Position numbers and translations under genes: made by a program. DNA of 56,009 nucleotides, counting the filler, from Thelocarpon superellum (taxonomy: Eukaryota), in assembly GCA_026025795.1 (NCBI GenBank). It is 3 parts of 3 records of this genome, joined end to end, with 100 filler letters (N's around TTAATTAATTAA, not from the genome) between each part and the next. Parts side by side here need not be neighbours in the genome. Positions count along the whole stretch, not along the records: positions 18,770 to 37,372 come from JAPEUG010000360.1; 2 more parts are not named here. One strand, given 5' to 3'. How positions within the stretch are numbered: position 1 is the stretch's first letter; each line of letters begins with the position of its first letter. This document shows, piece after piece, positions 19,434-39,285 of the stretch. Below the pieces are notes generated by a model, which worked only from the letters and a program-made list of their open reading frames with translations, was not told the DNA's origin and did not search any database.

Positions 19434-20710
19434 TCAATAATCCAATCCCTCTGCCGGCCTCACGCTCGCTGACGTATCCCCCTGAGCCTGGAAAACTCGA
19501 AGAGAGCGGATGGTCCAGTAGGACAGCGAGAAGATGGAGGGGTTCGCGGCCACGAAGGCCTCGCATGTTGTTCCGGTGCTAGACTGGCACCCGCTGCTCT
19601 CCCAGACGCTTTTTGCCCAGTCGCCGCAGAAATCCGTGTTGAAGACCTGTAGAGGTGGAGGGAAGAAGCGAGCGTCAGTGGGAGATTCTTGGTGTGATTA
19701 GATGAGAGGAAAGAGAGTTTAGGGATGAATGAAGGAGGGAGGGAGGGGAGGTCTACTCACAATCCGATTGTTCTTAAACTCCTCGTCAACTTTACACCCG
19801 GATCCTGCGGAGAAGTTCCCCGTCGGCTGGTACCATTGGGATGGATCGGGGGTGTCGGAGAAAACGTTATGGGGCGCCGTGCCGTTGGGCCAGAACCAGA
19901 TCGCAAAGGCCTCCGATGTCCACTCGAGCGCGTACACGCCGCCTCCGTTCTCGTTGAATCCTCGGCCAAAGGACGTCGTCCGATAGTCAAACGTGCCGCA
20001 GCCTGCGTTCTAATTCGCGGCGGCATTGCAGTTTTCTAATTGCGGTGGCTCCAGTGGCGACGTGATGGACATCTGACATTGGCCCCCGGCGTGCAGAGAC
20101 ATTTTGTTCTGTATCGCGTTGTTGACGTTTTCCAAGATATCGATCTCGCCGTTTGACGGCCACTCGGGTCCGTAGAGCCAACTGTGGATTGCCATCTTTG
20201 CATCAGCGAGGGGCCTGCGGAGGGATGTGGGAGAAGAGAAGTGGGACTCACAATCCTGGCCATGCCCCACATGCGTCGCCCGGCATGTGCGCAATGTCGG
20301 CAATGAAAAGGCCGTGCGTGTATGCATTCTTGCTCTCGATCCGGACGCTGCTGCGCCCAGTAATGAGGGGATCTGGATAGGTCCATGCTGTTTCGTTGTC
20401 CACGCCCACATACACGGCCGAGCCTCCCACGCGGCCGATGAGCGCCTTCTGCTCGGCAGTTGTCTGATCTAGATATTTCACGTAGCCATTCGACTTATCG
20501 GGTTGCTGAGGACTTCATGAGCAATGCCATCCTCGCACGATGTACGACAGCACGCGTGGTAGCGCGACGTACGCTGTTAAAGTCAAACATGGAGAAGAAA
20601 TGGTCGAAGTTCTGAGGTTGGTAGTCATCTTTCATGGTGTAGCTGAAGGACGAGGCCGCGGCCACACAGGTTGCAGTGGCAAAGAGCAAAAGCTGCCGAA
20701 CAGAAGGCAT
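19434..20710 (-). CDS. Secreted GH16 endo-1,3(4)-beta-glucanase (fungal Lam16A-like)
   Basis: Signal peptide MPSVRQLLLFATATCVAAA; motifs GRSSVRIESK, GLFIADIAHMPG, catalytic WPSNGEIDILE, GGVYALEW and VFNTDFCGDWA. Three introns; stop TGA at 19436-19434. Confidence 0.92.
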
Positions 20711-21543
20711 GACGACGATGGAGACGAGTTAAAAGACAACGCTCTAAGGAGGGTGAGGGTTGAAAAGCTGGCGGGCACCGCCTTCGTCTCTGTATCGTGG
20801 CGGACGGCTATGAAGACGGCCATGGCGCAGGTTTTGTGCTGTTCCGCTCGACGCCAGGGCAGCCCCTGGTGTGCGCCTTGCAATCACGTCTGCATTGAAA
20901 CAAGACGATTGATTGATTAGGAAGAGCACCGGAGCTTCCGAGGAATGACGAGACGTATAGGGATACGTGCTCCGATTGGACCGACCGGGGGCGCTCGGGC
21001 CAACGGCTTCCCAGGGTCTTGAAGTCACGCAGCAGGATGGTAACCAAACCGTATCAGGGGGGATGTAAAACAATGTGCACGGAGACAAAGGAAATGGGAT
21101 GCATAGGCCATCTTGGCAGGGTCATCAGGTCGTGCATTACGTGGATTTGGGACTCGGGTTGGAGCAGTGCAAGAGGATGGAAGGATGACGAATGCTAAGA
21201 ACACCGTGCGAAGACTTTCGTCGAAATTGCCGTCACGGGATGGGAGGCAATCGGACGACCGTCTTCACTTGCCTCTCGTAGGGCTCAGAGACATGGGCGA
21301 CGGCATTGCGACGGCATGAGGACGGAACGACTGCCGTTGTCGTTGGAATGGAATCAAGATTGACGAGAGATCAGTTCCGAGTTCTCCGGCTTCATGCATC
21401 CAACTACGGCCAATGCATTTGCTTTGGCGATGACCCGATCCACGCCATCTATCCCTTGGTGCCGAGTCAGGCAAAAGCGGCCTGCAGGGAACACATACAA
21501 GATCTAGAGGAGATGGCAGACATCCCTCGAGGATACTGGCCCA

Positions 21544-23206
21544 CTACGTCGCTATCCATGAACAGATTCCCCCGTCCCCTTCCATCGTCTTTCTTCCTAG
21601 CACCTCCCACACCTTCTTGCTGACGCCCTGCTTTTGTCCCGTGCGTTCTTCAAAATATGCTACTACCTGCCTTCGGGACTTCTCCCCCTGTCGCACCACA
21701 GCTTCGATCTCCGCTTCACGCGGGAGCGCCAACCAGGCGTGCGGATACTCGGCATACTCGTCCGAGCTACGGCCCGAGTTCAGCAGGGCCAGACGCTCGG
21801 CGCCCTCGAGGCTGAAGAAGTGGTCGACGTTGCCCGAGGACGTCTCGGATGACGCGGGCGACGAGGACAAGGGCGGCGGGGCCCACTGCGGCGTGGCCGG
21901 CGGTTTTCGGATCAAGCGGGCGGAGATGCCCTCGACGAAGTCAGGATGGGCCATCATCTTGCCCGCCAGCACGTATTCTCGCTGGAAGGTCTCGCTGATG
22001 TTCCATTGTCGACCTAGCCGCATCTGTCGCAGCGTCACCCGCACCGCCGTTGGCGACCGCTCCTGGAGCGTTTGCAGGGTGGCCCGGGCCCAGGGCGAAT
22101 CCTCCTTCTCCAACGCGGCGACAATTTCCTCGACGGTGTCCAAGGCGAAGCATCGGTCGATGGCCTCGCGAGTGGGTCCCGCCATCGCCATGGGCTCGTC
22201 ATGTGGCAAGCCCGTCACGAACTCCTCAATCGTCGAATTGATGACGGCACATCGTTCGGGGAGGCTGGCGGCATCGGGAAAGGTGAGTTCGGCCAGACGG
22301 CCTTCGAGATCGGGCAGAGACGAGGAGTGTAGATAGTGGGTGGCGATACCGGCGTAGCTATCAAGGGGTCAGCGGGTCTGGTCGCACGAGAATGGACGCC
22401 GCTCACAAGACGTTCACGCCCTTCAGGCGCTCGCTGGTCAGCGCAAGATAGGTGCCCGTGGCCCCGTCGAGCCGGGGCAGAAAGAAGCTGCCCCCGACAT
22501 CGGGGAAGAAGCCAATGGTGCATTCTGGCATGGCGAACACCGTTCGCTCCGTGGCGATGCGGAAAGGCGCGTGGACGCTGAGGCCTACACCTCCTCCCAT
22601 GCTGATGCCGTCCATAAAGGCCACGTAGGGTTTGGAGTAGGTGGCGATCAGATGGTCGAGCCGGTATTCGAGCTCAAAGTAGGCTTTGGACCGCTTCATC
22701 CCTTCGGGACCGCCGTCCATGTTGTCTCGTGCGAGCGCGGCGACGTCTCCACCCGCACAAAACGCCTTCTCGCCCGCGCCTTTCATGACGATGACGTTGG
22801 CCATCTGCGACTTTTCCCACTCCTATCCATGCAGGCGTCAGTGCCATTACGCCAGGCGCCCATCCATCGACGTACCTTTAATCGTGGCACGATCTTCCGC
22901 GCCATGGATCCGTTCAGCGAGTTGAGCTTCTTGGGCCGGTTGAGTTCGATGGTGCGGACGCCGTAGAGGGTGTTGAAGAGCACATCGTCAGCCTCGTCGC
23001 CCGGCTGTTCGCGCGGCAGGTCCGCCTGGGTCGCGAGCTGTGCCGCGGTCAATGGATGGTCGGTCGAGCGAGGGTGGCCCACCTACCCGTGCCTGGCCGG
23101 TGAAGGCCGGGTTGACGATTTTCGACTTGAGCGGCATGCTGGGCGGGACGTGGGCGCACCTGGCCAACGAAGAGGCTGCCGGACGAAGAGATCGACTGGC
23201 GAACAT
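21544..23206 (-). CDS. EHD3: Mitochondrial 3-hydroxyisobutyryl-CoA hydrolase (HIBCH/Ehd3; mitoribosomal mS47 in yeast)
   Basis: Presequence-like MFASRSLRPAASSLAR; motifs LNRPKKLNSLN, AFCAGGDV, MDGISMGGGVGLS, FAMPECTIGFFPDVGGS, RSPTAVRVTL and DFVEGISARLI. Three introns. Confidence 0.95.
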
Positions 23207-23548
23207 CAAGGCCAGCGTGGGTGCGGTCGGTCTTGCAATTGACTTGAACGGCCGCTGTTGTTGCTGCGGGTTCCTGCGTCCGTCGGCTTCCAGATGCGGA
23301 GGTTTGGCGGGTTGGACCTCGACAGAATTTGGGAATGTCGAGATGCTCGATCGTACACGTCCTCGACATCTTGTTCCCCAAGGATCACCCCATGGTTCCG
23401 AGCCGCCTTTTCATCTCTCTTGGCGTAAAGCAGTCCCGGGACCAAGCTCTAGCTACCTGTGCGAAGAACGAGTGGCACTTTCTGGTAACTCTTGGGTGCC
23501 TCTTCTCACGATTCCGCCCACGCGGTTCATTTCCCTTGTACAAGCTAT

Positions 23549-24515
23549 CTATGATACAGTCGACGTGAGACGCGAGGCCATGGGAACCAGATCGCTTTGG
23601 TGATCCAGTAAGATCTTGTTCAATGCGCTCCGCTCGATGATGACCCGGCCGAGTTCAAGCAAGTCCTTCACGTCCACCTCCTTCTCTTCCAGCACCCGGC
23701 CATCCTCCCCGGCCTCTTCCAAGGCCTCGTGCAGATTGGGCCGGTGCGACTTGGTGACAATCAAGGACCGACCATGGGGTCTACCCCAATGGTTCTGCTC
23801 AAAGATGTGTTTGATCAAACGCGTCTTGGGAAAGGGTAGGTCGACGTCGTCTTCGGTAATGATCAATTCTCCTTTCTGGTATCGATAGCTGAGCGCCGTC
23901 CGCCACGCCTGATCATAGATCTTGCGGGGAAGCTCGGTGGAGAAGTCGCGCGGCTTGGGGCCAAAGGCTACTCCACCGCCGCGGAGCATGGGCGACGTCT
24001 TGTCGCCCAATCTCGCTTTGCCCGTCCCTTTCTGTGGTCGGATCTTGCGCTTGCTCCCGTGGATCTCGGATCGCCACTTCGTACTCGCGGTGCCGGTCCG
24101 CGTCTTCGCGGCTTCGTAGATGACGGCGCGGTGGAGGAGATCGCGTCGGAGCGGGAGGCGAAGATGGAAGGGCGAATGATGCTCGAATCGAAGGGGCTCC
24201 ATGGCGGGAAAGGAGTAGACGGTGGTCAGCACGGGCGCGGCTATGCTCGTCAGCGACATCAATTTTCGAGCGGCGGGGACCGGATGGCCTACTCGACGGG
24301 ATTGACGGAATGTGTTCGGGGAAAGGCGTCGGGGACACCGCGACTTCTGTCGCCATCGAGCGAGACCAGCGTGGTGCGAGACATTGCTGGAGGCAGAGAT
24401 TAGCTTCAGTGGGGGACTTTGGAGCCTCACGCGCTCATACCCCTAACGAATCCAAGACGAGGCCTTTCTCATGACAGACGCGCTGCAAGAGCTGAGGCCA
24501 TCGCGGGAGTGCCAT
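23549..24515 (-). CDS. YML6: Mitochondrial ribosomal protein uL4m
   Basis: Motifs GTASTKWRSEIHGSKRKIRPQKGTGKARLGDKTSPMLRGGGVAFGPKPRDF and DVKDLLELGRVIIE. ATG at 24515, intron 24387-24440 and a second intron near 24241-24291. Confidence 0.93.
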
Positions 24516-24731
24516 CGATGCTCGAGAGATGGCTGGTTCATGGAATTGGGAGGAACGGGGGCCAGTGAGAGAAGACAGAGCAAACGTGGGAGCTGGGAGC
24601 GCCTCCGTCGAACGGGCGGAGATGGAAACTTCGCGGCAACTTCCGTCTCGTCCAGTCGAGTCGCGCGTCGAGCTGCACGACGGCAACAGATTGTCGGCGA
24701 CCACACCCCATCACCGTCCACCATCTCTGCC

Positions 24732-26082
24732 ATGTCGAGCGCCACGCATGCGGCAAGGCGTGCGCTCCAGTGCCCGAGATCATTACAAAGTGCTCGAGCG
24801 GTGGGGCATCGAGGTCCCGACCGTCGACATGTGAGCTTCACGGCCGCCAAGCACGATGAACCGTCCACGGCGGCAGCACCTCCGGTCGCCTCGGGCAAGC
24901 TGGACCCGAGCCGGGTCGTCTCGCCTGCACAGGAAAAGAAGCTCCTGAAGATGGGATTGATGCCGATCGGATCTCGCCGACGCCGAGCCGCCCTCCAGTC
25001 CGGCTTGAACGTGCCCTTTGAGCAGCTGCCGTACCAGTGCTTCCAGGAAGCGCGCCAGGTGTTGCAGGCCGATCGAGAGGAGAAGCTGCAGCAGATCGCG
25101 CTCGAACGAGCCCGGATCGCCAAGCTGCAGCGGAAGGATGCCGCGACCGTGGGCGGTGCAGCGCAGAAACAGCGGCGGCTACGGAGCATGCAAAACTACC
25201 TCGAGCAACTCAAGATCTACGCCGACATCAATGATCCGGTGATCAAGAAGCGATACGAAGATGGCCAAGGTCCGCCTCGCAGACCCCTCCCTCGATGGCC
25301 GAGCTTCCGCTAACGTAGCATTGGTGCTAGGGGATATGAACCGGCCCATCTATCGATTCCTGGCTGATCGGGAGTGGCGGGCATATCGGCGACTGCTGCT
25401 GATGCAGCGTCTCACGCAGATGAAGGTGGTGCCGGACATCCTTCCCCACATCGACCCCACGGCCGAGGTCCGACTCGGATTCGGTCGACGCAACGTGCAG
25501 CCCGGGGAGTTTGTGGAGTCTCGGGTCAGCGAGACCATTGCCCGCCTGCACGTGCAGGTGTTTGATAAGGGAGAGCGGCTTGTCAGCGTGGCTGTGGTCG
25601 ACCCCGATGTGCCGAATGTCGACAAGAATGGCTTCGACTACCGCTGCCATTTCCTGGCGTGCAATCTTCCCATCGCCCCGACTCTGCCCTCCCTCCCCTT
25701 GTCGCGCGTCTCGGCCGACACGCAGATGGTCCTACCCTGGCTGCCGCCGTGGGCACAGAAAGGCTCGCCGTATCATCGACTGTCCATCCTGGTGCTGCGA
25801 CAGCCCGAGGGTGCACCGCTGGACGTTGCGGCTCTGCGTACGTCGGTCGTCCGGGAGGGATTTAACCTGCGCAGCTTCAACGACAAGCATCGACTCGTCC
25901 CCGTGGGCGCCACCATGTTCCGCAGCCAGTGGGATGAGGGCACGGCCGAGGTCATGGGCCGATTGGGCGTCGAGGGCGCGGATGTGGAGTTCCGACGACC
26001 TCGGGAGGGGCCGTTGAAGAAGGTGGTGGAGCCTCGCAAGCGAAAGGAGAACCGCGGTGGCGTGCCGAGCAAGCGGCTCTGA
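24732..26082 (+). CDS. MRPL35: Mitochondrial ribosomal protein mL38 (PEBP domain)
   Basis: Motifs PIGSRRRR, PFEQLPYQCFQEAR, ADINDP, G|DMNRPIYRFLADREW, VVPDILP, VDPDVP and QKGSPYHR. Intron 25270-25330. Confidence 0.93.
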
Positions 26083-26155
26083 ACGCGGGCCTCTGGATGT
26101 ACAGTAGACAGTCCTCACGGGACGCACAGAGCGGGAGCGTCCACGAGCCACCGCG

Positions 26156-26875
26156 TCATGTAGCTGGTTTCAGCGGGTTCTCGAATCGTGTGAGCTCCAT
26201 CCGCCACTGCCGGGGCCATCCCCACTCCACGTGAAGCTTGCCGAGGACCTTGCCCTTGACTAGTCCTAGGGGCTGGGGGCCATACAAGCGGGAGTCCCGC
26301 GAGCTCCCGACATTATCACCCACCACCCAACAATGACCTTTCGGCACCTGCCCCGTGATGCGTCTGATTAGCCAATCATGCTCTACTACGAGACGCACGC
26401 ACACACCGAACCCGCACGTCGCACGGAGGTGATCCCACCCACCCACCTGGATCAGAGGCTCATCTGTGCCTGCACTCCCCCCGTCCTCCCCCTCGCGTCC
26501 CGGCGTATCCCGCATGACAAAATCTCCCGGCATGCCCAGCACGCGCTTGATGGTGCCCTCGCCCGTGAGAAAGGGGTGCATCAAGCTGACGACGTCGCCG
26601 ACCTCCACGCCTCGTCCCTTGCGGTGGAGCTTGGAGATCAACACCCAGTCGTCCCGTAGCTCGATCGTCGGTAGCATGCTCGGCCCGTAGGTGCCCTTGA
26701 CCGTGACGACATATTCCGTGACCAGGTGCCAGGTGGCGAAGATCTTGGCCGCGAGGATTGCCTTCTGCGTCAGGCTCCGGGGGGGTGGGGCCGGGGCCGG
26801 GGCCGGGGTAGCCAGAGGAGAGAGGTGGACATACCGGGGGCGGAAGAAATGCCAAAACCGCCCACGGAAGGCCAT
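26156..26875 (-). CDS. IMP1: Mitochondrial inner membrane peptidase subunit (S26 family, Imp1-like)
   Basis: GPSMLPT (catalytic Ser), IKRV (catalytic Lys), [22 protein letters not shown]. In-frame intron 26348-26446; ATG at 26875. Confidence 0.9.
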
Positions 26876-27123
26876 GCTCTTACATGTCACGCGAATGCCG
26901 CGCCGCGGATACGTGCTGGGTGCCTCGTAATCTTGGGTGCTGGGACGGTGTGCAAATGCCGCGATTGATGTTGACTGGCGGGAGAGATTGACGGACGACC
27001 TTCGCTTCGAGGCGGCTCTGGCGTCTACCAAAGTCCTCATCAGGACCTGCCAGCACCACGCATTCCAACTGTCTCCCTTGACCCACCCCTCTTTCCTGAT
27101 CCCGTCCCGGTCCACCCGGAAAG

Positions 27124-27903
27124 ATGCGGCAAGTGCGTTGCGCCAAAGGCACCGCTGGAGCTCTGTACCGGGTCTTCATCCTGCCATCCGAGCGGGCTCA
27201 ATCTTCCTTCTCCCTCTCCGTCTCCTCCGCGCGCCCTCTCCCCCGTCCTCGTCCCTACTCCACCTCCCACCTCTCCCGGTTCCGACCATGTCCGCCACAT
27301 CTCCCCTGCACGTCGCAGACACGCTACTACGCCACGACTCCCCCCCCTCCTCCTCCTCCTCCTCCGCGCCGACAACCACGCGACGAGGAGATCTCGGCCG
27401 GCACGATCCAGATCGTCAACGCCGACAACGCGCTCACCGCGCCGCGCCCGCTCCACGAAGTCCTCTCCTCGCTGGACCGCACCGTGCACGTCCTCATCCA
27501 AGTGGCCCCGCCCGACGTGCAGGTGCCCCACGCGCGGTGCAAGGTGGTGGATAAGCATCGCATGCGCGAGGAGGAGCGGGCGCGCGCAAAGGCAGGCGCC
27601 AAACCGCCCAGGAAGATGCAGCACGTCGTGAAGCAGCTGGAGCTGAATTGGGCTATTGACGCCAACGATCTCGCCCATCGGTTGAATCGGCTGCGGGAGT
27701 TTCTGGAAAAGGGGATGCGGGTCGAGGTTGTCATGGCCCCCAAGAGACGTGGGAGGAGAGCGACGTTGGACGAGGCCGAGGCGACGCTGACTACTATTAG
27801 GGAAAAGGCTCAAGCTCTTGATGGCGTTAGGGAGTGGAAACCTATGAGCGGCAGAGCCCTGCATCTGGCTACCTTGTTCTTTGAGCGCCAGCCAAAGACG
27901 TAG
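27124..27903 (+). CDS. Mitochondrial translation initiation factor 3 (Aim23/mIF3-like)
   Basis: Arg/Ser-rich presequence-like N-terminus; PRDEEI..IQIV; IF3 C-domain pattern [35 protein letters not shown]. Confidence 0.85.
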
Positions 27904-28243
27904 ATTCTGTTGCTCCATGTACTGCATCTGCCAGAAGTAGACCGTCATGTCCAGCTAATCATGGGAACTGTTGCTGGCGATTGCCGTGTCTTTCGTTGAG
28001 CAACGCCCAACAAGAAATGTGAATGCAGATATGGCAAAACAAGTGCAGCTGCAGGACAAGATACTATGCGTACATAGCCCACATCATCCCGTAGGATGAT
28101 GATCCCAACCTCACAATGTTGTTTCCACCACTCTTCAACGCCTGGAAGATAATCTGATACAACCTGCCAATGCCCCAGTCGACGACTCCGAATCGTGGAC
28201 AAGAAATATCAATGGATGTGTACATAGGAAAGGCACACAGAAG

Positions 28244-31200
28244 TCAACATCGCCCATACGTCCGTCGGGGTAAGACAAGTCCATTTGGACGTAGGTTGGC
28301 AGGAATCACCAGGTTCCCTCCGTGCGCAACGTCCACGGGGATTTGCATATGACTCCCGAACCCTTCTTGGTAGCGACGGAAAAACCATGTGAAGAAGGTT
28401 TTGCCCTTCATATCCCCGCCATTGGTCCCGGCTCCGGGGAACAGCAACTCGTCATGGCGATACGATGACGGGATGAAGACAGTCGTGGGACCCGTGGATC
28501 TGGCTCCCGGCGGAGCCAGACTCACCGTCGTGGCCGCCAATTCTTCCAAGAGCGATTCGAGCCAAGCCCGGATGCTCGCCATCTTCTGTGCCTCATCCGA
28601 GGCCTCAGATGCAGCTAGGAATTCCTCGGTGTTGTGTGGAATGCGGAAGAAGCTATGACCCCGGCAGATCACCTGGCGGCCCATCCCCTTGTCGTACGCG
28701 GTCCTGTGCTCATCACACAGATCCGTGTCGGGACAGTAGCGGCACGCCCATCGAGCGCCCTTGATGTTGCCTCCAGCGGGCCCGCACTCGTTGCACCATG
28801 CCTGGTGCTCCACGGATTTCTTGTCGTCGCTGATGAGGACTCGCCTGTCAAAGGCGATCTGCGCATCGGGCGACCGGTCAAGCAGGAGAAGCACGTCCCC
28901 GAGGCTATGGAAGCTGCGGTGATCGAGCGCGAAGTTGTCGAGGATCTCCCTGATCAGCTGGCGTACGCTGTCCACGAGTCGCGGCCGGCGCCGCTGCAAT
29001 TGGGCGGCCGAGGGCGGTGCGGTCCGGGTCCAGGCAAAGTCAATCGCCGACTGGCCATAATCGTCCGTCGTCTCAATGTTGGCCCCCGCGAGCACTAGCG
29101 CCTGCGTGGTCGAGGTTTGAAAACGCGTCAGGCTCACGGTCAGCGGAGTCAGGCCTTGCTCGCACACTTCCTCCATGTTGGCCTCGGCTTCCAGGAGCCG
29201 CGACACCACGGCGTGGTGCCCTTCCTTGGCGGCAATGTAGATGGCCGACAATGGACCAGTGCCGCCGCGGACCCCGACCCGATGCTGCAGGAGCAAGCGG
29301 ACGGCGTCCGCATGTCCACCCTCGGCCGCAAAAACCAAGGCCGTGTAATGTCGCTTATCCTCCGCTTCGACGTCAACCTTTCGATCAAGGAGCGCCTCCA
29401 TGACGGAAATATGTCCCCGGGCCGCCGCTTCGTGCAACGGCGTCGAGCCACCCGAGTCCGCGCGCTGCGGATCTGCCCCCTGCTCCAAAAGTAACTTGAC
29501 CACATCGATGTTTCCCGCCCAGCACGCGTAATGCAGAGGCCTCACGTCATTCTTGGACGTGACGTCAATATCCGGAAAGACGACCATCATCTGACGGGTT
29601 AGCGTCATATTACCACCCAGCACGGCGGCGTGCAGAGAGGTCAGGCCGTCTGGTCTCAACGCCTCAGGTTCGGCTCGGTTCTGAAGCAGCTGCCCAGCAA
29701 TGTTCTCGTGACCCTTGGCCAAGGCGATCCAAAGCGGCGTCTGATCAGCAGTATTCGGCACGTCCACCACGTTCGGCTCGGAAGCAAGGATCGCCGCCAC
29801 GGTCAAGGACTGCCCGCGAGTCGCCGCTTCATGTAGCGCGTTGTTGCGCGAAATGGTGCCTCTCATGACCTTGGCTTTGAATTGGACCAGAAGCGAAGCC
29901 ACCTCCTCATCGCCGCTGCCCACCGCAGCGTCCAGCGGCGTGTTTCCGAGCGAGTCGCAGGCATTGGGATCGGCATCCTTCTCGAGTAGAAGGCGGACTA
30001 CTTCGAGGTGCCCTTTGGTGGCGGCGGCGAAGAGGGGCGTCCAGTCGATGGGGATGATGGTGCGCGCGTCCACGTTGATGTCCGGCCGCGCCAGCAACAT
30101 GCGCACGATGCCAACATGATTCTCCCACGCGGCCGCGTGCAGCGGGTTGATGTGCGACTCGGAGAGGCCAAGATTGACCTCTGCGCCAATCTCGATCAGA
30201 TGCCGTGCAATGTCTTCGTGACCCCGTAGGCACGCGCGATACAGCGGGGGCGTCGCGTTTGCGCCCCTCCCGAGCTCAACCGCGCCAGCTTCGATGAACG
30301 CCGTCATCACGGCTTGATTGTGCTTGGACAGAGCTTCATCAAAGGCCGTGGTCTGGTCTTCCGTGGTCTTGAGCGTTACGTCGGCTCCCTCGCGAATGAG
30401 CAGTTGCACGACCGCGGCGTGACCTCCTGACGCGGCGAGATGCAATGACGTCCACCCGGTCGAACCCTTTTCTCCAGTCACGGCCAAATCGATATCGGCA
30501 TGACCTTCTTGTAGTAAGATCCGCGCGGTCTCCTCATGACCATCTTGAGCGGCATAGTGAAGGGCAGCGAAGCCACTGCTGTCCGGCACGTCCGGCATGG
30601 CGCCACGCGCCAACAGACGCTGGACGAGCGAAGCCCACCCATCCGTTGCTGAACTTTGGAGAGGCCGCCATCCATTGCTCGCGATCGCTTCTGGATCGGC
30701 GCCGGCGTCGAGGAGCAAGGCGGCGCAGTCAGTGTGGCCCGCCTGGAGGGCGTCATGCATCGGGGTGTCTTGGAAGGCGTCACGCAGGTCGGCGGTCGAG
30801 GTTCGCTCCAAGAGTTGCTTCAGGATGTCTGTTCGGCCGAGCATGGCGGCGAGGTGGAGTGTCGTGGCGCCATTCGCGCGCTCGTTGATCGCCGCGACGT
30901 TGGCATTGTTCTCGAGGAGCACACGCACCACGTCCTTGTCGCCTTTCGTGATGGCGAAATGCAGCGGCGTCGCAAACGAGGGTGAGCCGCTGTCGATGAC
31001 GGCACCATCCCGGAGCAGGAGGGTCACGGCGTCCGGGTGACCATTGCTCGCCGCACAATCGAGCGCGGTCCAACCAAAGTCGTCCGTTTCGTCCACGTGC
31101 GCGACCAGATGATGGGGTCGGAAGCGCTCAGGTATCCACGGCACATACTCCCAGAAGGAAAAGGCTTGGTTCTCGCGGTTGGACGTCCAGCCCGCCTGTT

Positions 31201-34200
31201 GGAGTGTGCGGTAGTCGGCCTTGACGAAGCTGATGTAGGGCCATAGGTTGGTGAGGTCCGCAGCCGCGATCAGGTGCAGGATGGGCTTTGACTTGCTCGT
31301 GTTGACCAGCACCTTGGTAAGGACACAAAAATGGAGCTGCCAGTTCAAGAACTGCTGCGATTGCGCCTTGAGGAAGCGCAGCAGCGCCGGGACCAACGGC
31401 GTCACGCTGTCACCACAGCGCTTGACGTGGATGGGCCAGGCGCCGGCCGCATAGCCATAAAAAGGGTGGTGTTGTTGCAGGCTCTCAATGCTTTCCTCGC
31501 TCAAGGACCATCCTTGGCCGAAGTCGTCCATCTCGAGATATCGGAGACAGATCGTCGCCATTTCGAGGTTCGAGGAGACTCCATCATATTGGAAGCGTGA
31601 CAGCGGTGCCTGGACCCGTCTTTGCGGAAGATGAAGCAAATACTGGCGCAGCGTGTCATGACGAAGCTCGTAGGTGGTACCATTCGTGCTGAGTAGCTGC
31701 CCACACATGACCTGCAGCCAATTGCCTAGGTTCAAATTGGGCCTCATCTCCGCCTTGCATTTGGGATGGGCCTGCATCGACAAGGCCTCGGCGAGCTCCT
31801 CGAGCGTCAGCGAACGATTGGCAAAGAACAGCAACATGAAGACGCGGCGAATGTCTTCCAGGTGGTCGGGGGGAATGGAAGTAAAGGCCTGATCGTAGTA
31901 TTCGTCCATGTCAGCGGGCAAGGCCTCGAGCGTGGCCTTGATGCTGTCTTGATCACCTTCGAACGAGACATCCCTGACCTTGGCCAAGGCTCGGTCGACG
32001 TAGATGAACATGCCATTGGCTTTGTACTGGATCCGACTGATGGCGTAGTCCTTGAGATCGCCCGTGTAATTGGGCGACTGGCTGATCTCATCCATGGTGA
32101 GCTGGACGACCGTTTTGATGTCCTGCTTCAAGAACCGCGCGTTCCCGTCATCCGCGCCGTTCTCCCACAAGTCAATGACCGGATGCTTGGTGGCGAAGCT
32201 CGGGATGGCTCCGACTGGAACGCAGGTCAGAATGACCTTGGCCAGGCCGGCCGCCTTGACTCCCGTATCCGCGACATTGCCAAAGAGCTGCTCCAGGTGG
32301 TGCAAGAATCGCTGGATAAACGGTTGCTGACATTCGTTGAGCGCGTCGATGACCAAATAGACCTGACCGAGATCAGGGTCTTTGAGGATGTTCTCGAGGA
32401 TGCTCCAGAGCAGGTCGGCAGAAGGCGGTGCGCCTGACCGCCGCACATGGGTGTTGGGGGCTTGAACGTGGCGAAATAATCGCTCATTAGTGTCGAGCAG
32501 GCGGTGGACGAACATCTCGAGGATGGGCGGGTCCTTGTCACGGTTGGCCTTGCCTTTGCAGTAGAAGGTGTGCACCGTCGCCCCATCCGCCTCGAGTTTC
32601 GAAGAGAGAAAGCGGGCGAGCACGGATTTGCCACAGCCCGAGGGCCCGAGGATGCACAGCACGTCCGCTTCCGGTTGCCGTTGCCATTGCTGAAAGACCT
32701 CATGCTCCCTCACCCAGGTGCAGGTCCGGCCTTGTGCCTTGGCCACATCGCCTCCCAGATGGACGTCTTCCCATACTGCAATGGAATCGAGGAAGTCCTG
32801 GCGTTCGCGCTCGTCCCACTCTGCCGGCCGTTAGGCGACGATTACGAGATTTCGCGGTCACAAGATAGCCGCGGGGAGGCCCCCCGGCCCGCCGGGGGGG
32901 GGGGAAGAAAGTGGGTGACTGACCTTTGACTGAAGCCTTTGGTAGGGGCCGGAGCCCTGATTCCTTGACCTGGAAGGTTTGGCCTACTGGTATGAGCACT
33001 TGAGCGACGCTCGGGCTAGGGTGGCACAGATACCTTTGCTGGCGAAATCGCGGATATCTTGACGAGCATTCAATGAGTCATTGTGGGACGGTGTGACTAT
33101 GAATTGCTACCGATCAGTCTCGGATACAAGTCACCTGTTTACCTACTACTACTAGTAGGCAAACAGGGAGGCAGAACGGCAAAGAGGGAAAGCGGTCAAG
33201 ACAATCGGTCTCGCAGGCTCGGCTAAACGACATCCGACACCTCCGCTTCCAGACATCTCACTGACTTTCATCACGCAGACCTCCCATCGTCGGTGGTCGG
33301 GGCAAGCGGTGGAATCTTTCAGCCATGGCGTCGTCGTCCGTCAAGGCGGGCGCCGTCGGCTGCGCAATGCTCTGCGCAATGACCTTTTGGATGGCAATGT
33401 CGAGCTTGGTTTGCAGAGTCACAAAGTCATTCTCCGTAGGACTCGCAAATTTGCACAGGTCCTGGTGAGTACGAGCGGAACCGACGGGCCGTTCCTGAGG
33501 GTGGTTCATCTTGGCCGATCCTTCGGGGACGATCTGGGCGGCATCAGCGACGGAGCTCACTCACAGCAGGGTCCGACGGACCACTTGATTCTTGTACGGC
33601 GGAGGCAGCCAGGTCTCCTTTTGCTCGAAAAAGCTCACAATCTCGATCTTGTCCCCTGGCACATTGGTGAAGTCGGTGTTGATGTCACAGAGCGTGTGGG
33701 AGTAGGGCTCCAGCTCTCGGGTCAGCGTCGTCGAGGGGTTGTGCCCAAGCTGACCCCAGTGATAAAGCTTTTGCAGGACTTGCAGCGCTCCCGATAGATC
33801 GGCGCCGTTGTGCGGCGTTCCCAGGAAGATGATGGCCACGGTGCTATTGACGATATTGCCATAGTGCTTGGCGTTGGCCTTGGCGGCGATCAAAGCCTGG
33901 GAGGCGTCAGAAGAGTCCCACTGTTCGGATAGCTGGCCTCTCACTCTTTTTACCACGATCCCACCAAGACTGTGGGCAACGAAAATGATCGGTCGACGCT
34001 GAGGACCGTCAGCTTCCTCCGACAAACGGCGCGCTCGACCCGTACCTGTTCATTCGCGGCGATCCGCTTGTCTGTGAGAGCGTCCAGCAGGTTGTTGGCA
34101 TGGGTCGCGACCCGGCCGATGACGACGTCAGAGAAGACGTTGGCGTTGTAGCCAAAGGACAGGACTCGGGCCTTTTTGAACGAGTCCGACATGAATTCAT

Positions 34201-34433
34201 CGTCGCTGAGCCAGCACTTTTTGCTGCTCTTATCCGTCCAGGTGTCGGTGGCGTCTCCGTTCAGGCCGTGGACGGCGACGATGCTGCCGGCGGCTGGTGA
34301 GCGGAGAATGTGTGTCAGATGGGCCCCACTCACTCGACCACCGCGTCATTGCGGGGACGCACAACCTTGATACTCTGGGTATGTCATGTCAGTCCGTACA
34401 CCGCCGGATAGGCCAAGCAGCGGCACGCACCAT
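28244..34433 (-). CDS. Fungal NLR-like protein: SesB-like alpha/beta hydrolase - NACHT - ~20 ankyrin repeats - ZZ-type zinc finger
   Basis: Hydrolase motifs DIVAVHGLNG, RVLSFGYNA, RPIIFVAHSLGG, IIFLGTPHNGA and THQDLCKF. NACHT Walker A GPSGCGKS, Walker B YLVIDALNEC, then ANGMFIYV and HDTLRQYL. Ankyrins at ~29040-31090; ZZ finger at ~28650-28800. Phase-compatible introns 33097-33265, ~32984-33033 and ~32821-32923 join the hydrolase exons to the 1500-aa ORF. The fusion is inferred from splice signals. Confidence 0.88.
29040..31090 (-). repeat. Array of ~20 divergent ankyrin repeats
   Basis: About 33-aa periodicity of G.TPLH.AA..GH..VV.LLL..GA; counted by eye as 20 complete repeats plus one partial. 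Confidence 0.93.
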
Positions 34434-35752
34434 GTGGCGGGACTGTCAACGCCCAGAGGGCGTCTGCCAGCTGCCGGTCGATTGGACGAACTGGATGACG
34501 GCCGGGTCAACGCGTTCCGCCACCGTCGCTCGCACGTCCGCGACAGCCTCGTTCGTCTCCATGGCGGATCCATGGAGCTTTTATACCGAGCTCCAGCCAT
34601 GCTCAGCCAATCACGCAGAGGCATCGGCGATAGACGCCATCAAGCCTCTCCGGGACAAGGCGCCCTCCGCAAGGTATGCCTGCATGGCCCGCTGCTGGGC
34701 CCCTGCCAGAGCAATGACCATCCAATACCGCTTCGCAGGGTCTCCTATGTTGCTGGCTAGCTCGCGGGCAGTTCCCCCCTACCACAGTATCGAGGAACCA
34801 GCAGGTTCGGGAGGACCTTTTTTAGGTTGGACTTTAGCGGCTTGGCTTGCGAGGGTTGCCCACCCCATCTTAGCTTTAGGTATCACGGGATGTGGGATAA
34901 CCGTGGTTAGTCTACTTGCAGCCTCGCAGCCTCGCGAAAGAGACGATCACTAGCCCACGCCATGGCCAGACCAGGCGATGCGAAAGAGTGGAGACGCAGC
35001 CCAACTGGGAGTGTTCGCTATTCTCGGACGGAGGCGGAGTGTGGTACGAACACTTCGTGCAGGGCGAGAAATATTAGTAGTATTGGGCGGTGCTTGAGCC
35101 AGTCCCATGGCCGGCGCCAAATGCCATGCTCGTCTGCTGCCAGCCTTGTCCGCTGGGGATTCCAGGACCTTTGCGCGTTCCGTGGCGGACTCATCCGTCG
35201 TAGGGCTCGGAATAGCGCAGACCAACGCGGTGCTCCGGTACAGAGAACTGACCTGGCGCGAGAAAACCTAGTGCCCAGGTCGTGTGACGGTAGGACAAAC
35301 GCTTCACTCCGCCACGAGCTTATTGGGGAGCAGCTTGAACAAAGCAGATATAGCATGCTCCGCGAATTTCAACTTGATCGATTGATCAGTGAGGAGTACT
35401 CGTAGTCACCTCACCCTTCCTTATGGCTCGAGCTCTGGACCAGGACTACAGACAGCCGTGGCAGGTAGCCGTGACCGTGTCACCGTGCATTCAGCATTCG
35501 GTCTCTGTCTCCATATGGTCCAACACCAGACACGGTGGTTCGGACGCCCTGCCGGAAGGTCAACGCACAGCGCGCCTGGCTAGGCTCGATCGGGCCAAGG
35601 CCTTTCGCTCGTCGCCAGTCTTACATAACGTCTTAGGTAAACACTCAGGTAAAAAAGTTGCCCATATGTTGCTCGTGCTCGTAGATCTCGACGTTCACAG
35701 GGTTGAAGATATCGCCCGAGCTCAACTTGTTTCTTGACACCCTCCGCGCGAC

Positions 35753-37366
35753 ATGGCGACCTTCGCTCGGTCTGTGAGCCCGTTCCTACGGACCACTCGG
35801 GTGTCTTGGCGACAAAAGAAGTCACTGCCGGAAGTCAATCCCGTGGGATATGTCTTCACTCCGGGCCGGCATGGAGCTTGCCTGGTCCGAGCCTCCCGAG
35901 GCATGGCCACGGTGTTTGAGAGGAAGAAGCCGCATGTGAACATCGGTAGGTGGCATCACGAAGGAGGGATGGCCAATGGATGTTAACGCGGACAGGAACC
36001 ATTGGCCACGTCGATCACGGAAAGGTTGTCGCAAGCTGGCCACCGATTGCAAAGGTTCCTTGCTCACATCGTAATAGACCACTCTGACGGCTGCCATCAC
36101 CAAGCGCCAAGCAGAAAAGGGATACGCGAAATTCCTCGACTATGGTTCCATTGACAAGGCCCCCGAGGAACGGAAGCGTGGCATCACCATCTCCACGGCA
36201 CACATTGAGTACGAAACGGACCCTCGCCATTACTCCCACGTCGACTGCCCGGGCCACGCGGATTACATCAAGAACATGATCACCGGGGCAGCCAACATGG
36301 ACGGGGCGGTCATCGTCGTTGCCGCCTCGGATGGACAAATGTGAGTGTCGGTGATTGGATGATGGCGGCAGTCCCTGATCGAGTCGCAGGCCGCAAACCC
36401 GCGAACATCTCCTGCTGGCCCGACAAGTCGGCGTGCAGAAGATCGTCGTCTTCGTCAACAAGGTCGACGCCATCGAAGACAAGGAGATGTTGGAGCTGGT
36501 GGAGATGGAGATGCGAGACTTGCTCACGACCTACGGCTTCGAGGGCGACGAGACCCCCATCATCTTGGGCTCGGCGCTGTGCGCGTTGGAAGGTCGACAG
36601 CCCGAGATTGGCGTGGAAAAGATTGATGCGCTCATGGATGCCGTTGACGCGTGGATTCCCACCCCACAGCGAGACTTGGACAAGCCCTTCCTGATGTCTG
36701 TCGAGGACGTCTTCTCCATCCCGGGGCGAGGGACCGTGGCGTCGGGGCGTGTGGAACGGGGGACGCTGAAGCGGGATGCGGAGGTGGAGCTGGTGGGCAA
36801 GACCGGTGCGCCCATCAAGACCAAAGTCACGGACATCGAGACCTTTAAGAAGTCGTGCGAGGAATCCCGCGCCGGAGATAATTCGGGCTTGTTGCTCCGC
36901 GGCGTCAAGCGGGAAGATGTCAAGCGGGGCATGGTCATCGCCAAACCCGGTTCCACCAAGGCACACACCAAGTTCATGTGCTCGATGTACGTGCTCACCA
37001 AGGAAGAAGGAGGTCGTCACACAGGGTTCCACGACAATTACCGACCGCAGCTCTTCGTCCGTACGGCTGGTACGTTTCTCTCCACCTCACTCGTGACCTC
37101 GCTCCTCTAACTCCCGTACAGACGAGGCCGCTGCCTTCCACTGGCCCGAGGGCACGGCCGATGCCAAGAGCAAAATGGTAATGCCTGGCGACAACGTGGA
37201 GATGGTGTGCGAGACGCACTCGCCGTTAGCGCTCGAGCCCGGGCAACGATTCAATATCCGCGAGGGCGGCAGGTAAGGGCCTCAATCCTCTCATCCCCTC
37301 CTCAGCATTTCTGACAATCGACTCAGGACCGTCGCGACGGGACTCGTGACTCAGATCATGGAGTAG
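35753..37366 (+). CDS. TUF1: Mitochondrial elongation factor Tu
   Basis: [81 protein letters not shown] and [13 protein letters not shown]. Five introns. Confidence 0.97.
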
Positions 37367-37372
37367 GGGCTG

Positions 37373-37472
37373 NNNNNNNNNNNNNNNNNNNNNNNNNNNN
37401 NNNNNNNNNNNNNNNNTTAATTAATTAANNNNNNNNNNNNNNNNNNNNNNNNNNNNNNNNNNNNNNNNNNNN
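37373..37472. other. Artificial contig-joining spacer
   Basis: Identical 44 N + TTAATTAATTAA + 44 N. Confidence 0.97.
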
Positions 37473-37553
37473 CCGCAGCCGCTTGGGCACGTCGGCCATT
37501 GCAAAGAGCGATATGGGGACAGGGACGGTACGGACAAGGACGGGACTGCCCAA

Positions 37554-39264: not shown

Positions 39265-39285
39265 TAGGGTAGGGTAGGGTAGGGG
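39265..39285 (+). repeat. (TAGGG)4 microsatellite, G-quadruplex-capable
   Basis: tagggtagggtagggtagggg downstream of the HMG gene stop codon. Confidence 0.8.

What the first reader, a model, noticed from the sequence alone, without database searches (positions are those of the whole stretch)
21544..37366. Operon-like cluster of nuclear genes for mitochondrial translation and protein maturation
Seen: five consecutive, tightly packed genes (EHD3, uL4m, mL38, IMP1, mtIF3; gaps ~70-340 bp, two head-to-head pairs), then mitochondrial EF-Tu after one intervening NLR gene, all on one contig segment. Known: Ehd3 is yeast mitoribosomal mS47, uL4m and mL38 are large-subunit proteins, mtIF3 and EF-Tu are the organellar translation factors, and Imp1 processes mitochondrially translated pre-Cox2 in yeast. 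Inference: six of seven adjacent, non-paralogous genes serving one process suggests a selected, co-regulated housekeeping cluster rather than a metabolic one. I cannot tell whether it has been described before.
Basis: partly seen in the sequence, partly recalled or inferred. Interest (0 to 1): 0.75.

Follow-up and report, generated by a model that had tools for sequence, protein, structure and literature searches.

The report
Conserved fungal cluster of mitochondrial-translation genes
Five to six nuclear genes that build and run the mitochondrial ribosome lie side by side in this lichen-associated fungus, and much of that arrangement recurs in distantly related classes of filamentous fungi, which is unusual for housekeeping genes in eukaryotes.

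Summary
On one 18,603-bp contig of Thelocarpon superellum (window 18770-37372), mS47, uL4m, mL38, an IMP-family inner-membrane protease subunit and mtIF3 fill 6.4 kb, with gaps of 73-411 bp. They include two head-to-head pairs. An NLR gene follows, then mitochondrial EF-Tu.

The cluster is not private to this genome.
- In 80 metagenome loci anchored on mL38, uL4m lies head-to-head with mL38 in 25 of 30 lineages that have enough left flank.
- One unnamed clade has all six genes contiguous with no NLR, so the NLR is a lineage-specific insertion.
- mS47-uL4m-mL38-IMP recurs in a Eurotiomycetes-like clade.
- Locus tags or accessions put mS47 two genes from mL38 in 11 of 14 named species, covering Geoglosso-, Xylono-, Lecanoro-, Candelario-, Coniocybo- and Sareomycetes.
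- The neighbours shared by the most clades are exactly these mitochondrial genes.

A chance run of five is expected about 7e-6 times per genome, using assumed set sizes.

Not shown: co-expression (no RNA runs), a shared promoter motif (none found), and selection as opposed to slow neutral decay of a tightly packed block. The cluster is broken in several lineages. IMP1 versus IMP2 is unresolved. I found no prior description in print.

The parts
18770..37372 (.). The single physical contig (18,603 bp) that carries the whole cluster. It is bounded on both sides by artificial spacers (44 N, TTAATTAATTAA, 44 N).
   Evidence: N runs; spacers read; contig length 18603 for P0001, P0121 and P0181; even cover and no joints in the probable source run X1, which is not independent.
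21544..23137 (-). mS47, the Ehd3 / 3-hydroxyisobutyryl-CoA-hydrolase-like small-subunit mitoribosomal protein (locus tag M1838_003396); at least three exons.
   Evidence: ECH_2 on two ORFs; 6yw5_88 at 5.4e-59; P0181 maps here.
23549..24356 (-). uL4m, a large-subunit mitoribosomal protein. The start at 24356 and a 51-nt 5' intron are inferred by me, not confirmed.
   Evidence: Ribosomal_L4 at 9.2e-46; 6ywe_D at 1.3e-77; start region read.
24357..24731 (.). Shared divergent promoter region of uL4m and mL38, about 376 bp from ATG to ATG.
   Evidence: The same head-to-head pair occurs in 25 of 30 lineages with enough left flank. ATG-to-ATG distances read, using the first in-frame ATG of each gene, are mostly about 100-400 bp in other loci, with one of 35 bp.
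24732..26082 (+). mL38, a PEBP-like large-subunit mitoribosomal protein (M1838_003398); one phase-1 intron at 25270-25330.
26156..26875 (-). Mitochondrial inner-membrane protease subunit of the IMP1/IMP2 family. It is convergent with mL38, with the two stop codons 73 bp apart.
   Evidence: Peptidase_S26; Atlas name; ATG read; the T. impressellum orthologue M1832_004288 lies between mL38 (4287) and mtIF3 (4289).
26876..27123 (.). Shared divergent promoter region of IMP and mtIF3 (248 bp).
   Evidence: Sequence read. The same head-to-head pair is found in L012 and in L022/L023/L026.
27124..27903 (+). Mitochondrial translation initiation factor 3 (M1838_003400).
   Evidence: IF3_C at 32.0 bits, below the cut-off; bacterial IF3 at 3.7e-6; homologues with IF3_N plus IF3_C; P0121 maps to 27124-27768.
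28244..34345 (-). NLR gene (NACHT-type NPHP3_N domain plus ankyrin repeats). It is inserted between mtIF3 and EF-Tu in this lineage. The 5' limit is approximate.
   Evidence: It is absent between mtIF3 and EF-Tu in L012, L023 and L026, where the matched stretches of the two genes lie about 1.2 kb apart.
35753..37372 (+). Mitochondrial EF-Tu, with several exons; it runs to the contig end.
   Evidence: GTP_EFTU, D2 and D3 domains; exons read; solved EF-Tu and mitochondrial EF-Tu at about 1e-87 to 1e-89.

Best explanation
This is an old, compact cluster of nuclear genes for the mitochondrial translation machinery, inherited from an early ancestor of the leotiomyceta (the filamentous ascomycete classes).

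Structure. The core is the divergent pair uL4m<->mL38, which shares a short promoter region. Attached to it are mS47 (in tandem behind uL4m), an IMP protease subunit (convergent with mL38, stop codons 73 bp apart), mtIF3 (divergent from IMP across 248 bp) and EF-Tu. In Thelocarpon superellum an NLR gene was inserted between mtIF3 and EF-Tu.

How it probably works (inferred). The two bidirectional promoter regions, and possibly one shared chromatin neighbourhood, couple the transcription of components that are needed together. The very short intergenic spaces, shared promoters and overlapping 3' ends leave almost no place where a rearrangement can cut without damaging an essential gene. Together these would keep the block intact while the surrounding genes are reshuffled.

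Shown: the gene identities, the adjacency, its recurrence across classes, and the different flanks in different clades.

Inferred: the age of the cluster, the coupling of transcription, and any selective advantage of linkage.
For: Gene identities.

Full six-gene order without the NLR in L022/L023/L026, and mL38-IMP-mtIF3-EF-Tu in L012.

mS47-uL4m-mL38-IMP in L035/36, L062 and L064. These sit next to Malbranchea (Eurotiomycetes) in a quick mL38 tree.

uL4m is head-to-head with mL38 in 25 of 30 lineages that have at least 1.2 kb of left flank.

Among 35 orthogroups in 27 representative loci from 10 clades, the most widely shared neighbours of mL38 are uL4m (9 clades), mtIF3 (6), IMP (6) and mS47 (5). 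The best non-mitochondrial orthogroups reach 3 clades.

No other ORF of the window matches any of the 80 loci.

Named species: mS47 lies two tags or accessions from mL38, or is fused with an L4 domain next to it, in 11 of 14 species with both genes visible. These cover Thelocarpales, Sareomycetes, Candelariomycetes (Pycnora), Geoglossomycetes, Lecanoromycetes, Coniocybomycetes and Xylonomycetes.

T. impressellum tags are 4285 (mS47), 4287 (mL38), 4288 (IMP) and 4289 (mtIF3).

Where the order differs, mtIF3 still lies within about 1.3-5.4 kb of mL38, beside uL4m in some loci (L009, L013, L041, L080, L068, L072, L074). A bacterial-type, presumably mitochondrial, GluRS lies beside mL38 or near mtIF3 in L057, L072 and L074.

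Chance expectation.

Baseline from the literature: within one class, only two blocks of at least 5 genes were conserved in at least 14 of 18 Dothideomycetes, and neither occurred in outgroups (PMC3516569, section 9 read).
Against: Retention falls with distance from the anchor gene. Immediate neighbours are kept in 9 and 6 clades, second neighbours in 5 and 6, and third neighbours in 3 (a bZIP gene) and 2 (EF-Tu). Neutral decay of an initially contiguous block gives the same pattern, and no non-mitochondrial gene sits at distance 1-2 to serve as a control.

The cluster is dispensable.
- uL4m is not beside mL38 in 5 of 30 lineages (L025, L039, L049, L073, L076).
- mS47 is on another contig in Candelina and Scytalidium, and five genes away in Xylogone.
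- Leotiomycetes-like loci lack IMP and mtIF3 within 10 kb.
- EF-Tu is linked only in this genome and one clade.

No promoter motif common to the four promoter regions was found. The A-tract motif upstream of mL38 was defined after looking at the data and tested against a biased background. No RNA data exist.

Locus-tag spacing is only a proxy for adjacency. The clade names rest on a quick single-protein tree. The functional category was defined after seeing the genes. N and the set sizes are assumed. The scan that produced this finding looked at very many windows.
Confidence: 0.6

Rival explanations
1. Frozen accident. The genes came together by chance once in an early ancestor. They have stayed together only because the block is so tightly packed with essential genes that few rearrangement breakpoints are tolerated. 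Linkage gives no benefit for regulation.
For: Retention declines smoothly with distance from mL38. The cluster erodes independently in many lineages. No shared promoter motif was found. Intergenic spaces are very short, with convergent stops 73 bp apart.
Against: The initial chance assembly of five or six genes of one narrow process is very improbable: 7e-6 for five and 1e-7 for six with a set of 150 genes. mtIF3 stays within about 1.3-5.4 kb of the pair after rearrangements that changed its side. Another mitochondrial translation gene (GluRS) appears next to cluster members in other lineages.
Confidence: 0.3
2. A coincidence private to this genome or assembly: chance adjacency, or a chimeric metagenome-assembled contig.
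For: The genome is a metagenome-assembled one on short contigs.
Against: The same arrangement is found in independent metagenome contigs and in annotated genomes of other species. Unitigs of run X1 cover the contig evenly, bridge mL38-IMP-mtIF3 and mtIF3-NLR, and show no joints. X1 may be the source sample, so this last point is not independent.
Confidence: 0.02
3. A relic of bacterial translation operons, carried over when mitochondrial genes moved to the nucleus. From general knowledge, uL4, EF-Tu and IF3 are operon genes in bacteria.
For: Three members (uL4m, EF-Tu, mtIF3) are of bacterial descent.
Against: mS47, mL38 and IMP are not bacterial operon partners of these genes. The genes lie on both strands, each with its own promoter and introns. 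EF-Tu linkage is seen in only 2 of 10 clades. By my recollection, not tested here, the Saccharomyces cerevisiae orthologues lie on different chromosomes.
Confidence: 0.02

Closest known systems
Adjacent-gene co-regulation of ribosomal-protein and ribosome-biogenesis gene pairs in yeasts and other eukaryotes (Arnone et al. 2012, PMC3500266: abstract and one passage seen; Eldabagh et al. 2018, PMC6001612: abstract in the search listing seen, and a term search found no mention of mitochondria)
   Same: Functionally related housekeeping genes of a large assembly sit next to each other, often as divergent pairs, more often than chance predicts, and the pairing is conserved.
   Different: Those are mostly pairs and concern the cytosolic ribosome pathway. 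Arnone et al. pool all ribosomal proteins, organellar ones included. Here four to six genes of the mitochondrial translation system form one block that recurs across classes. Co-expression is shown for the yeast pairs but not here.
Conserved microsyntenic blocks in Dothideomycetes (Ohm et al. 2012, PMC3516569, section 9 read)
   Same: Blocks of at least 5 genes survive the intrachromosomal shuffling (mesosynteny) of filamentous ascomycetes and are proposed to be under selection.
   Different: Their two blocks are confined to one class and absent from outgroups. One has no functional theme and the other is made of oxidoreductases. The present block spans several classes and has one clear theme.
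Ancient collinear blocks of fission yeasts (Acs-Szabo et al. 2021, PMC8537764, passages and a table seen)
   Same: The GO slim term 'mitochondrial gene expression' is over-represented in conserved collinear blocks there (79 of 150 genes; p = 0.02 and 0.01). This is a hint that such genes tend to keep their neighbourhood.
   Different: That is a statistical enrichment inside one genus, with no specific cluster of mitochondrial translation genes described in the passages I saw, and a different subphylum.
Bacterial translation operons (S10, str and infC operons; general knowledge, not tested here)
   Same: Genes for ribosomal proteins and translation factors are kept together and expressed together.
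   Different: There is no polycistronic transcript here. The genes are on both strands with their own promoters and introns, and the membership is different.
Fungal metabolic gene clusters such as the nitrate-assimilation cluster (PMC2040219, abstract in a search listing only)
   Same: Non-paralogous genes of one process are clustered and co-inherited in fungi.
   Different: Those encode a dispensable pathway that is switched on by conditions and is sometimes transferred horizontally. This is a constitutive, essential organellar machinery.

Membership tests
mS47 (Ehd3 / HIBCH-like mitoribosomal small-subunit protein) | ECH_2 (crotonase-fold hydrolase) domain | tested here: met
   ECH_2 at 3.4e-65 and 1.1e-38 on the two main exons.
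mS47 (Ehd3 / HIBCH-like mitoribosomal small-subunit protein) | Closer to a chain solved inside a mitoribosome than to free HIBCH enzymes | tested here: met
   N. crassa mitoribosome chain 6yw5_88 at 5.4e-59, against human HIBCH 3bpt at 4.9e-18. UniRef names 'mitochondrial 37S ribosomal...' appear on two homologues.
mS47 (Ehd3 / HIBCH-like mitoribosomal small-subunit protein) | Only such gene in the genome, or the true orthologue among paralogues; physically part of this organism's mitoribosome | not testable with these tools
   No whole genome is held.
uL4m | Ribosomal_L4 domain, and closest to mitoribosomal uL4m chains | tested here: met
   (9.2e-46). N. crassa 6ywe_D at 1.3e-77, yeast uL4m at 8e-34, bacterial L4 at about 1e-24.
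mL38 | PEBP-like domain, and a match to mL38 chains over both exons | tested here: met
   (6ywe_1 at 3.1e-73 and 1.6e-34; yeast mL38 at 3.5e-27).
Imp1 (catalytic subunit 1 of the inner-membrane peptidase) | Peptidase_S26 domain of the mitochondrial IMP type | tested here: met
   Peptidase_S26 at 4.8e-17. Atlas clusters are named 'Mitochondrial inner membrane protease subunit' (score 0.96).
Imp1 (catalytic subunit 1 of the inner-membrane peptidase) | Orthology to Imp1 rather than to the paralogue Imp2 | tested here: inconclusive
   Of the ten of the 150 listed homologues that I looked up, the only one with a name was a 'hypothetical protein' of T. impressellum. No labelled Imp1 or Imp2 reference was available.
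Mitochondrial IF3 | IF3 C-terminal domain | tested here: inconclusive
   IF3_C at 1.2e-7 but 32.0 bits, under the 34.8 cut-off. Bacterial IF3 structures match at 3.7e-6 over residues 96-256.
Mitochondrial IF3 | IF3 N-terminal domain | tested here: met
   Met in the homologues, not in this protein. Precomputed Pfam gives PF05198 plus PF00707 on 6 of the 17 homologues listed. The window's own protein is listed with PF00707 only.
Mitochondrial EF-Tu | GTPase domain plus domains 2 and 3 of bacterial-type EF-Tu, encoded by an intron-bearing nuclear gene | tested here: met
Co-regulated gene cluster (adjacent-gene co-regulation) | Physical adjacency of functionally related, non-paralogous genes beyond chance | tested here: met
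   (set sizes assumed).
Co-regulated gene cluster (adjacent-gene co-regulation) | Conservation of the adjacency in distant relatives | tested here: met
   The conservation is partial and eroded in several lineages.
Co-regulated gene cluster (adjacent-gene co-regulation) | Correlated expression above that of ordinary neighbours or unlinked members of the regulon | not testable with these tools
   No RNA holder is listed for this DNA.
Co-regulated gene cluster (adjacent-gene co-regulation) | Shared cis-regulatory elements | tested here: inconclusive
   Two bidirectional promoter regions are evident from the gene orientation. No k-mer is common to the four promoter regions in both genomes tested. 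An A-tract motif lies upstream of mL38 in 11 of 23 loci against 1.4 expected, but it was defined after looking at the data.
Operon | Genes on one strand transcribed as one polycistronic RNA | tested here: not met
   Strand order is -, -, +, -, +, (-), +.

The most novel reading that the evidence does not exclude
The ancestor of the leotiomyceta assembled a dedicated cluster for mitochondrial translation: mS47, uL4m, mL38, IMP, mtIF3 and EF-Tu. Selection for coordinated transcription from two bidirectional promoters has kept it for hundreds of millions of years. It still draws in or holds further members, such as mitochondrial GluRS, in some lineages. That would make it a eukaryotic housekeeping counterpart of a bacterial translation super-operon.
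Probability: 0.3. Interest if true: 0.8.

Novelty: new variant of a known kind. Interest (0 to 1): 0.62.

Why it matters
Clusters of functionally related genes in fungi are known mainly for dispensable metabolism. For core machinery, the known cases are mostly gene pairs.

A block of four to six essential genes for one organellar machine, recurring across several ascomycete classes whose genomes are otherwise thoroughly shuffled, would be a natural test case. It asks whether gene order in eukaryotes is shaped by the need to co-express partners or only by a lack of safe breakpoints.

Nature has already provided the comparison: lineages with the block intact, rearranged or dispersed.

It also has practical value. 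Finding an unknown gene inside this block in other fungi would be a lead to a role in mitochondrial gene expression.

Tried and rejected
- Whole-genome permutation test: impossible, because no genome is held for this window. It was replaced by an analytic expectation with assumed numbers.
- Earlier notes of this scan: nothing relevant.
- RNA evidence: no RNA holder is listed. Only DNA unitigs could be laid.
- Looking further along the long metagenome contigs for the dispersed members: those records are not held.
- Promoter k-mers. The strongest recurring k-mers in the uL4m/mL38 spacer turned out to be start-codon and splice-site context of the two genes, not regulatory motifs. No k-mer was shared by the four promoter regions in both the window and L023.
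- Puf-type motif TGTANATA: 5 hits in the window against 0.8 expected. Only one (28219) lies downstream of a cluster gene, so it was not pursued.
- The ORF after EF-Tu in L023 carried a Ribosomal_S14 domain and might have been a seventh mitochondrial gene. It is cytosolic RPS29.
- The unknown protein downstream of mL38 in eight lineages has no Pfam or solved-structure match, and only weak Atlas leads. It cannot be counted as mitochondrial.
- N. crassa locus numbers, wanted for a synteny check in a model fungus: the readable supplement of PMC7560712 gives UniProt ids only, and its PDF supplements could not be read.
- Imp1 versus Imp2: not resolved.
- Literature searches for a prior description returned nothing that describes this cluster: with follow-up reading.

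Full report
**What the window is.** The 56-kb window is not one stretch of chromosome. Two spacers of 44 N, TTAATTAATTAA and 44 N divide it into three contigs. The finding lies wholly on the middle one, window 18770-37372. Its length of 18,603 bp equals the contig length recorded for the three proteins of this region that are in the public collection. Those proteins are annotated as Thelocarpon superellum, a metagenome-assembled genome. NCBI taxonomy places the species in Thelocarpales, leotiomyceta incertae sedis. No whole genome is held for the window. Unitigs of the probable source run cover the contig evenly, bridge mL38-IMP-mtIF3 and mtIF3-NLR, and show no joints. That run is not independent of the assembly.

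**The observation.** All gene identities hold.
- mS47: ECH_2 domain. The C-terminal exon matches the N. crassa mitoribosome small-subunit chain 6yw5_88 at 5.4e-59, against 4.9e-18 for human HIBCH.
- uL4m: Ribosomal_L4. N. crassa 6ywe_D matches at 1.3e-77, against about 1e-24 for bacterial L4.
- mL38: PEBP domain. 6ywe_1 matches at 3.1e-73 and 1.6e-34 for the two exons.
- IMP: Peptidase_S26. The Atlas names its cluster 'Mitochondrial inner membrane protease subunit'. Whether it is Imp1 or Imp2 could not be decided.
- mtIF3: IF3_C scores just under Pfam's cut-off. Bacterial IF3 structures match at 3.7e-6, and 6 of 17 listed homologues carry IF3_N plus IF3_C.
- NLR: NPHP3_N plus ankyrin repeats.
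- EF-Tu: all three domains, several introns, and about 1e-87 to 1e-89 to solved bacterial and mitochondrial EF-Tu.

The strand order is -, -, +, -, +, (NLR -), +. Five genes fill 21544-27903, which is 6.4 kb. The gaps are:
- 411 bp from the mS47 start to the uL4m stop;
- about 376 bp between the uL4m and mL38 start codons (uL4m start inferred);
- 73 bp between the convergent stops of mL38 and IMP;
- 248 bp between the IMP and mtIF3 start codons;
- 340 bp from mtIF3 to the NLR.

**Chance.** In a randomly ordered genome of 10,000 genes, the expected number of runs of five from a set of 150 genes is 7e-6, and of six is 1e-7. If every nuclear-encoded mitochondrial protein is counted (900 genes), the figures are 0.058 and 0.005. 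These set sizes are my assumptions. The category was also drawn after seeing the genes, so the numbers are only a guide.

**Relatives: DNA evidence.** I aligned 18 mL38 proteins and scanned the metagenome contigs with the alignment. Of 383 matched stretches, 194 encoded a relative, and the best 80 loci were kept with up to 10 kb on each side. I then ran tblastn with the window's ORFs.
- The full order mS47(-), uL4m(-), mL38(+), IMP(-), mtIF3(+), EF-Tu(+) occurs with no NLR in L023 and L026. L022, a shorter contig of the same lineage, carries the first five genes. L012 has mL38-IMP-mtIF3-EF-Tu on a contig that starts inside mL38. The matched stretches of mtIF3 and EF-Tu lie about 1.2 kb apart there, so the NLR of T. 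superellum is a later insertion into a six-gene block.
- mS47-uL4m-mL38-IMP occurs in L035/36, L062 and L064.
- mS47-uL4m-mL38, with IMP and mtIF3 8-9 kb downstream, occurs in L020/24.
- mtIF3 lies directly behind uL4m, on the other side of the pair, in L009/10, L013, L041/42 and L080. It lies 4.6-5.4 kb from mL38 in L068, L072 and L074.
- Grouping the loci at 85% mL38 identity gives 57 lineages including the window. Of the 30 with at least 1.2 kb of left flank, 25 have uL4m head-to-head with mL38. The exceptions are L025, L039, L049, L073 and L076.
- Of the 29 lineages with at least 1.5 kb of right flank, 6 have IMP tail-to-tail within 500 bp, 2 more have it about 8 kb away, and 8 have instead an unknown conserved protein. 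Two further lineages with short flanks also show IMP directly downstream.

**Relatives: named species.** NCBI names carry locus tags, which number genes along contigs. Comparing the tags of mL38 and mS47, plus accessions for two species, gives the following.
- The two genes are two apart in T. superellum, T. impressellum, Sarea resinae, Pycnora praestabilis, Caeruleum heppii, Glutinoglossum americanum, Geoglossum umbratile, Xylographa soralifera, Lambiella insularis and Xylona heveae.
- In Sclerophora amabilis the neighbouring model is a 699-residue fusion of the ECH and Ribosomal_L4 domains.
- That makes 11 of the 14 species in which both genes were visible.
- Xylogone has them five accessions apart. 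Candelina and Scytalidium have them on different contigs.
- In T. impressellum the tags run 4285 (mS47), 4287 (mL38), 4288 (IMP) and 4289 (mtIF3).

Class assignments for five species were checked in NCBI taxonomy; the rest are from my knowledge of the genera. Tag spacing is a proxy: the gene in between was verified as uL4m only in Sclerophora. Many other species appeared in only one of the two lists and could not be scored.

**Is this more than ordinary synteny?** I clustered all ORFs of 26 representative loci and the window's contig into orthogroups, removed antisense shadows, and assigned the loci to ten clades from a quick mL38 tree.
- Beside mL38 itself, the orthogroups found in the most clades are uL4m (9 of 10), mtIF3 (6), IMP (6) and mS47 (5).
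- The next are an unknown protein (3) and a bZIP gene (3).
- All other flank genes are shared by at most 2 clades. They include CSN5, ATG16, ferroportin, a zinc-cluster factor, DUF1264, CSL4 and importin-alpha.
- No ORF of the window other than the six genes matches any of the 80 loci.
- For scale, a study of 18 Dothideomycetes found only two blocks of at least 5 genes conserved in at least 14 genomes, and neither was present in outgroups (PMC3516569, section 9 read).

So the block outlives its surroundings across classes.

**The main caveat.** Retention falls with distance from the anchor gene (9 and 6 clades, then 5 and 6, then 3 and 2). This is what slow neutral erosion of an initially contiguous, very compact block of essential genes would also give. 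There is no unrelated gene inside the block to act as a control. The block is clearly dispensable, since several lineages have lost parts of it.

Two things speak for more than inertia. First, assembling such a block by chance is improbable in the first place. Second, mtIF3 keeps close to the pair after changing sides, and a bacterial-type GluRS (catalytic domain plus Anticodon_2, presumably the mitochondrial enzyme) lies 0.9 kb downstream of mL38 in L057 and next to mtIF3 in L072/L074. I could not test co-expression, because no RNA run is listed.

I found no shared promoter motif.
- The recurrent k-mers in the uL4m/mL38 spacer are start-codon and splice-site context.
- No k-mer is common to the four promoter regions in both the window and L023.
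- An A-tract motif, AAAA[AG]TT, lies within 200 bp upstream of the mL38 start in 11 of 23 loci against 1.4 expected. One of only two copies in the window lies 100 bp upstream of the EF-Tu start. That motif was defined from the same data and tested against a background that includes coding sequence.

**Mechanism I commit to.** This is an ancient cluster whose two divergent pairs share short promoter regions and whose ends overlap. Transcription of partners is therefore coupled locally, and rearrangements inside the block are rarely tolerated. The anatomy and the conservation are shown. The coupling and its benefit are inferred. I give this about 0.6. I give the purely neutral 'frozen accident' about 0.3, and about 0.04 to artefact, private coincidence or bacterial-operon relic combined.

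**Comparison with what is known.**
- Closest are the co-regulated adjacent pairs of ribosomal-protein and ribosome-biogenesis genes (PMC3500266, abstract and one passage seen).
- Next are the conserved blocks of Dothideomycetes (PMC3516569).
- A third parallel is the over-representation of 'mitochondrial gene expression' genes in ancient collinear blocks of fission yeasts: 79 of 150 genes, p = 0.02 and 0.01 (PMC8537764, passages and a table seen).
- It is not an operon, because the genes lie on both strands. It is not a metabolic cluster.
- Five full-text searches and the follow-up reading found no description of this particular cluster. Subscription journals and unreadable PDF supplements are not covered, so a prior report cannot be excluded.

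**Verdict.** I rate it a new variant of a known kind, with interest 0.62.

Noticed in passing
window 18670-18769 and 37373-37472: The window is three separate contigs joined by artificial spacers (44 N, TTAATTAATTAA, 44 N). Genes outside 18770-37372 are not physically linked to the cluster. This includes a CIA30 complex-I assembly factor at about 14947-15354.
   Followed up: yes
window 28244-34345 (-): A large NLR gene (NPHP3_N / NACHT-type domain plus many ankyrin repeats) sits between mtIF3 and EF-Tu only in this lineage. In loci L012, L023 and L026 the two genes are direct neighbours. Pieces of the NLR are also present in two runs from another study, at low depth.
   Followed up: partly
window 27124-27903 (+): The public gene model of mtIF3 (P0121, 223 aa) ends in a different 3' exon after 27768. 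The unspliced frame runs on to 27900 and keeps the IF3_C match to profile position 80 of 86, so the annotated intron is probably wrong.
   Followed up: partly
window 24260-24500 (-): The conserved MAT/MAS-type start of uL4m is out of frame with the main ORF in this genome. A 51-nt GT..AG intron would join them. Leotiomycetes-like loci instead have a separate upstream first exon. The true 5' end of uL4m here is unconfirmed.
   Followed up: partly
protein P0172 (Sclerophora amabilis M1837_001324): A 699-residue public model carries both the ECH and Ribosomal_L4 domains. This is most likely mS47 and uL4m merged by the annotator because the genes are so close, not a real fusion.
   Followed up: no
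L009:12055-13176, L017:12054-13157, L041:11624-13036, L068:4555-6093, L072:12025-13080, L074:12180-13274, L080:12162-13337; also L052 and L055: An unknown conserved fungal protein of about 320-470 aa with a strongly conserved C-terminal motif takes the place of IMP directly downstream of mL38 in eight lineages. It has no Pfam or solved-structure match, and only weak helical-repeat leads from the Atlas.
   Followed up: partly
L074:2548-4233, L072:1858-3504, L057:2278-2739: A bacterial-type glutamyl-tRNA synthetase (tRNA-synt_1c plus Anticodon_2), presumably the mitochondrial enzyme, lies next to mtIF3 or directly downstream of mL38 in three lineages. A DnaJ gene lies beside it in L072 and L074.
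   Followed up: partly
L049:14593-16317 and L049:1984-3840: In one lineage where mL38 has lost uL4m as a neighbour, an M16 peptidase (the family of the mitochondrial processing peptidase) and a She9/Mdm33 gene lie within 8 kb of mL38. This may be coincidence.
   Followed up: no
upstream of mL38 in 11 of 23 loci; window 35653: The A-tract motif AAAA[AG]TT lies 67-147 bp upstream of the mL38 start codon in 11 of 23 loci. One of only two copies in the whole window lies 100 bp upstream of the EF-Tu start. The motif also occurs upstream of mtIF3 in L009 and L080 and upstream of IMP in L035. It was defined after looking at the data and may be a generic promoter feature.
   Followed up: partly
L023:15819-16325 (-): The gene after EF-Tu in the clade with the full six-gene block is cytosolic ribosomal protein S29 (uS14), followed by DNA polymerase alpha subunit B and a CRAL-TRIO protein. 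The mitochondrial theme ends at EF-Tu.
   Followed up: yes
window 1-18669 and 37473-56009: The other two contigs carry a VIT-family transporter (3714-5084), a DUF7730 protein, an HMG-box protein (39932-40462), an FRG1-like protein (46653-47612), a cytochrome-b5-reductase-like oxidoreductase (48668-49324) and MFS transporters. None is related to mitochondrial translation.
   Followed up: no
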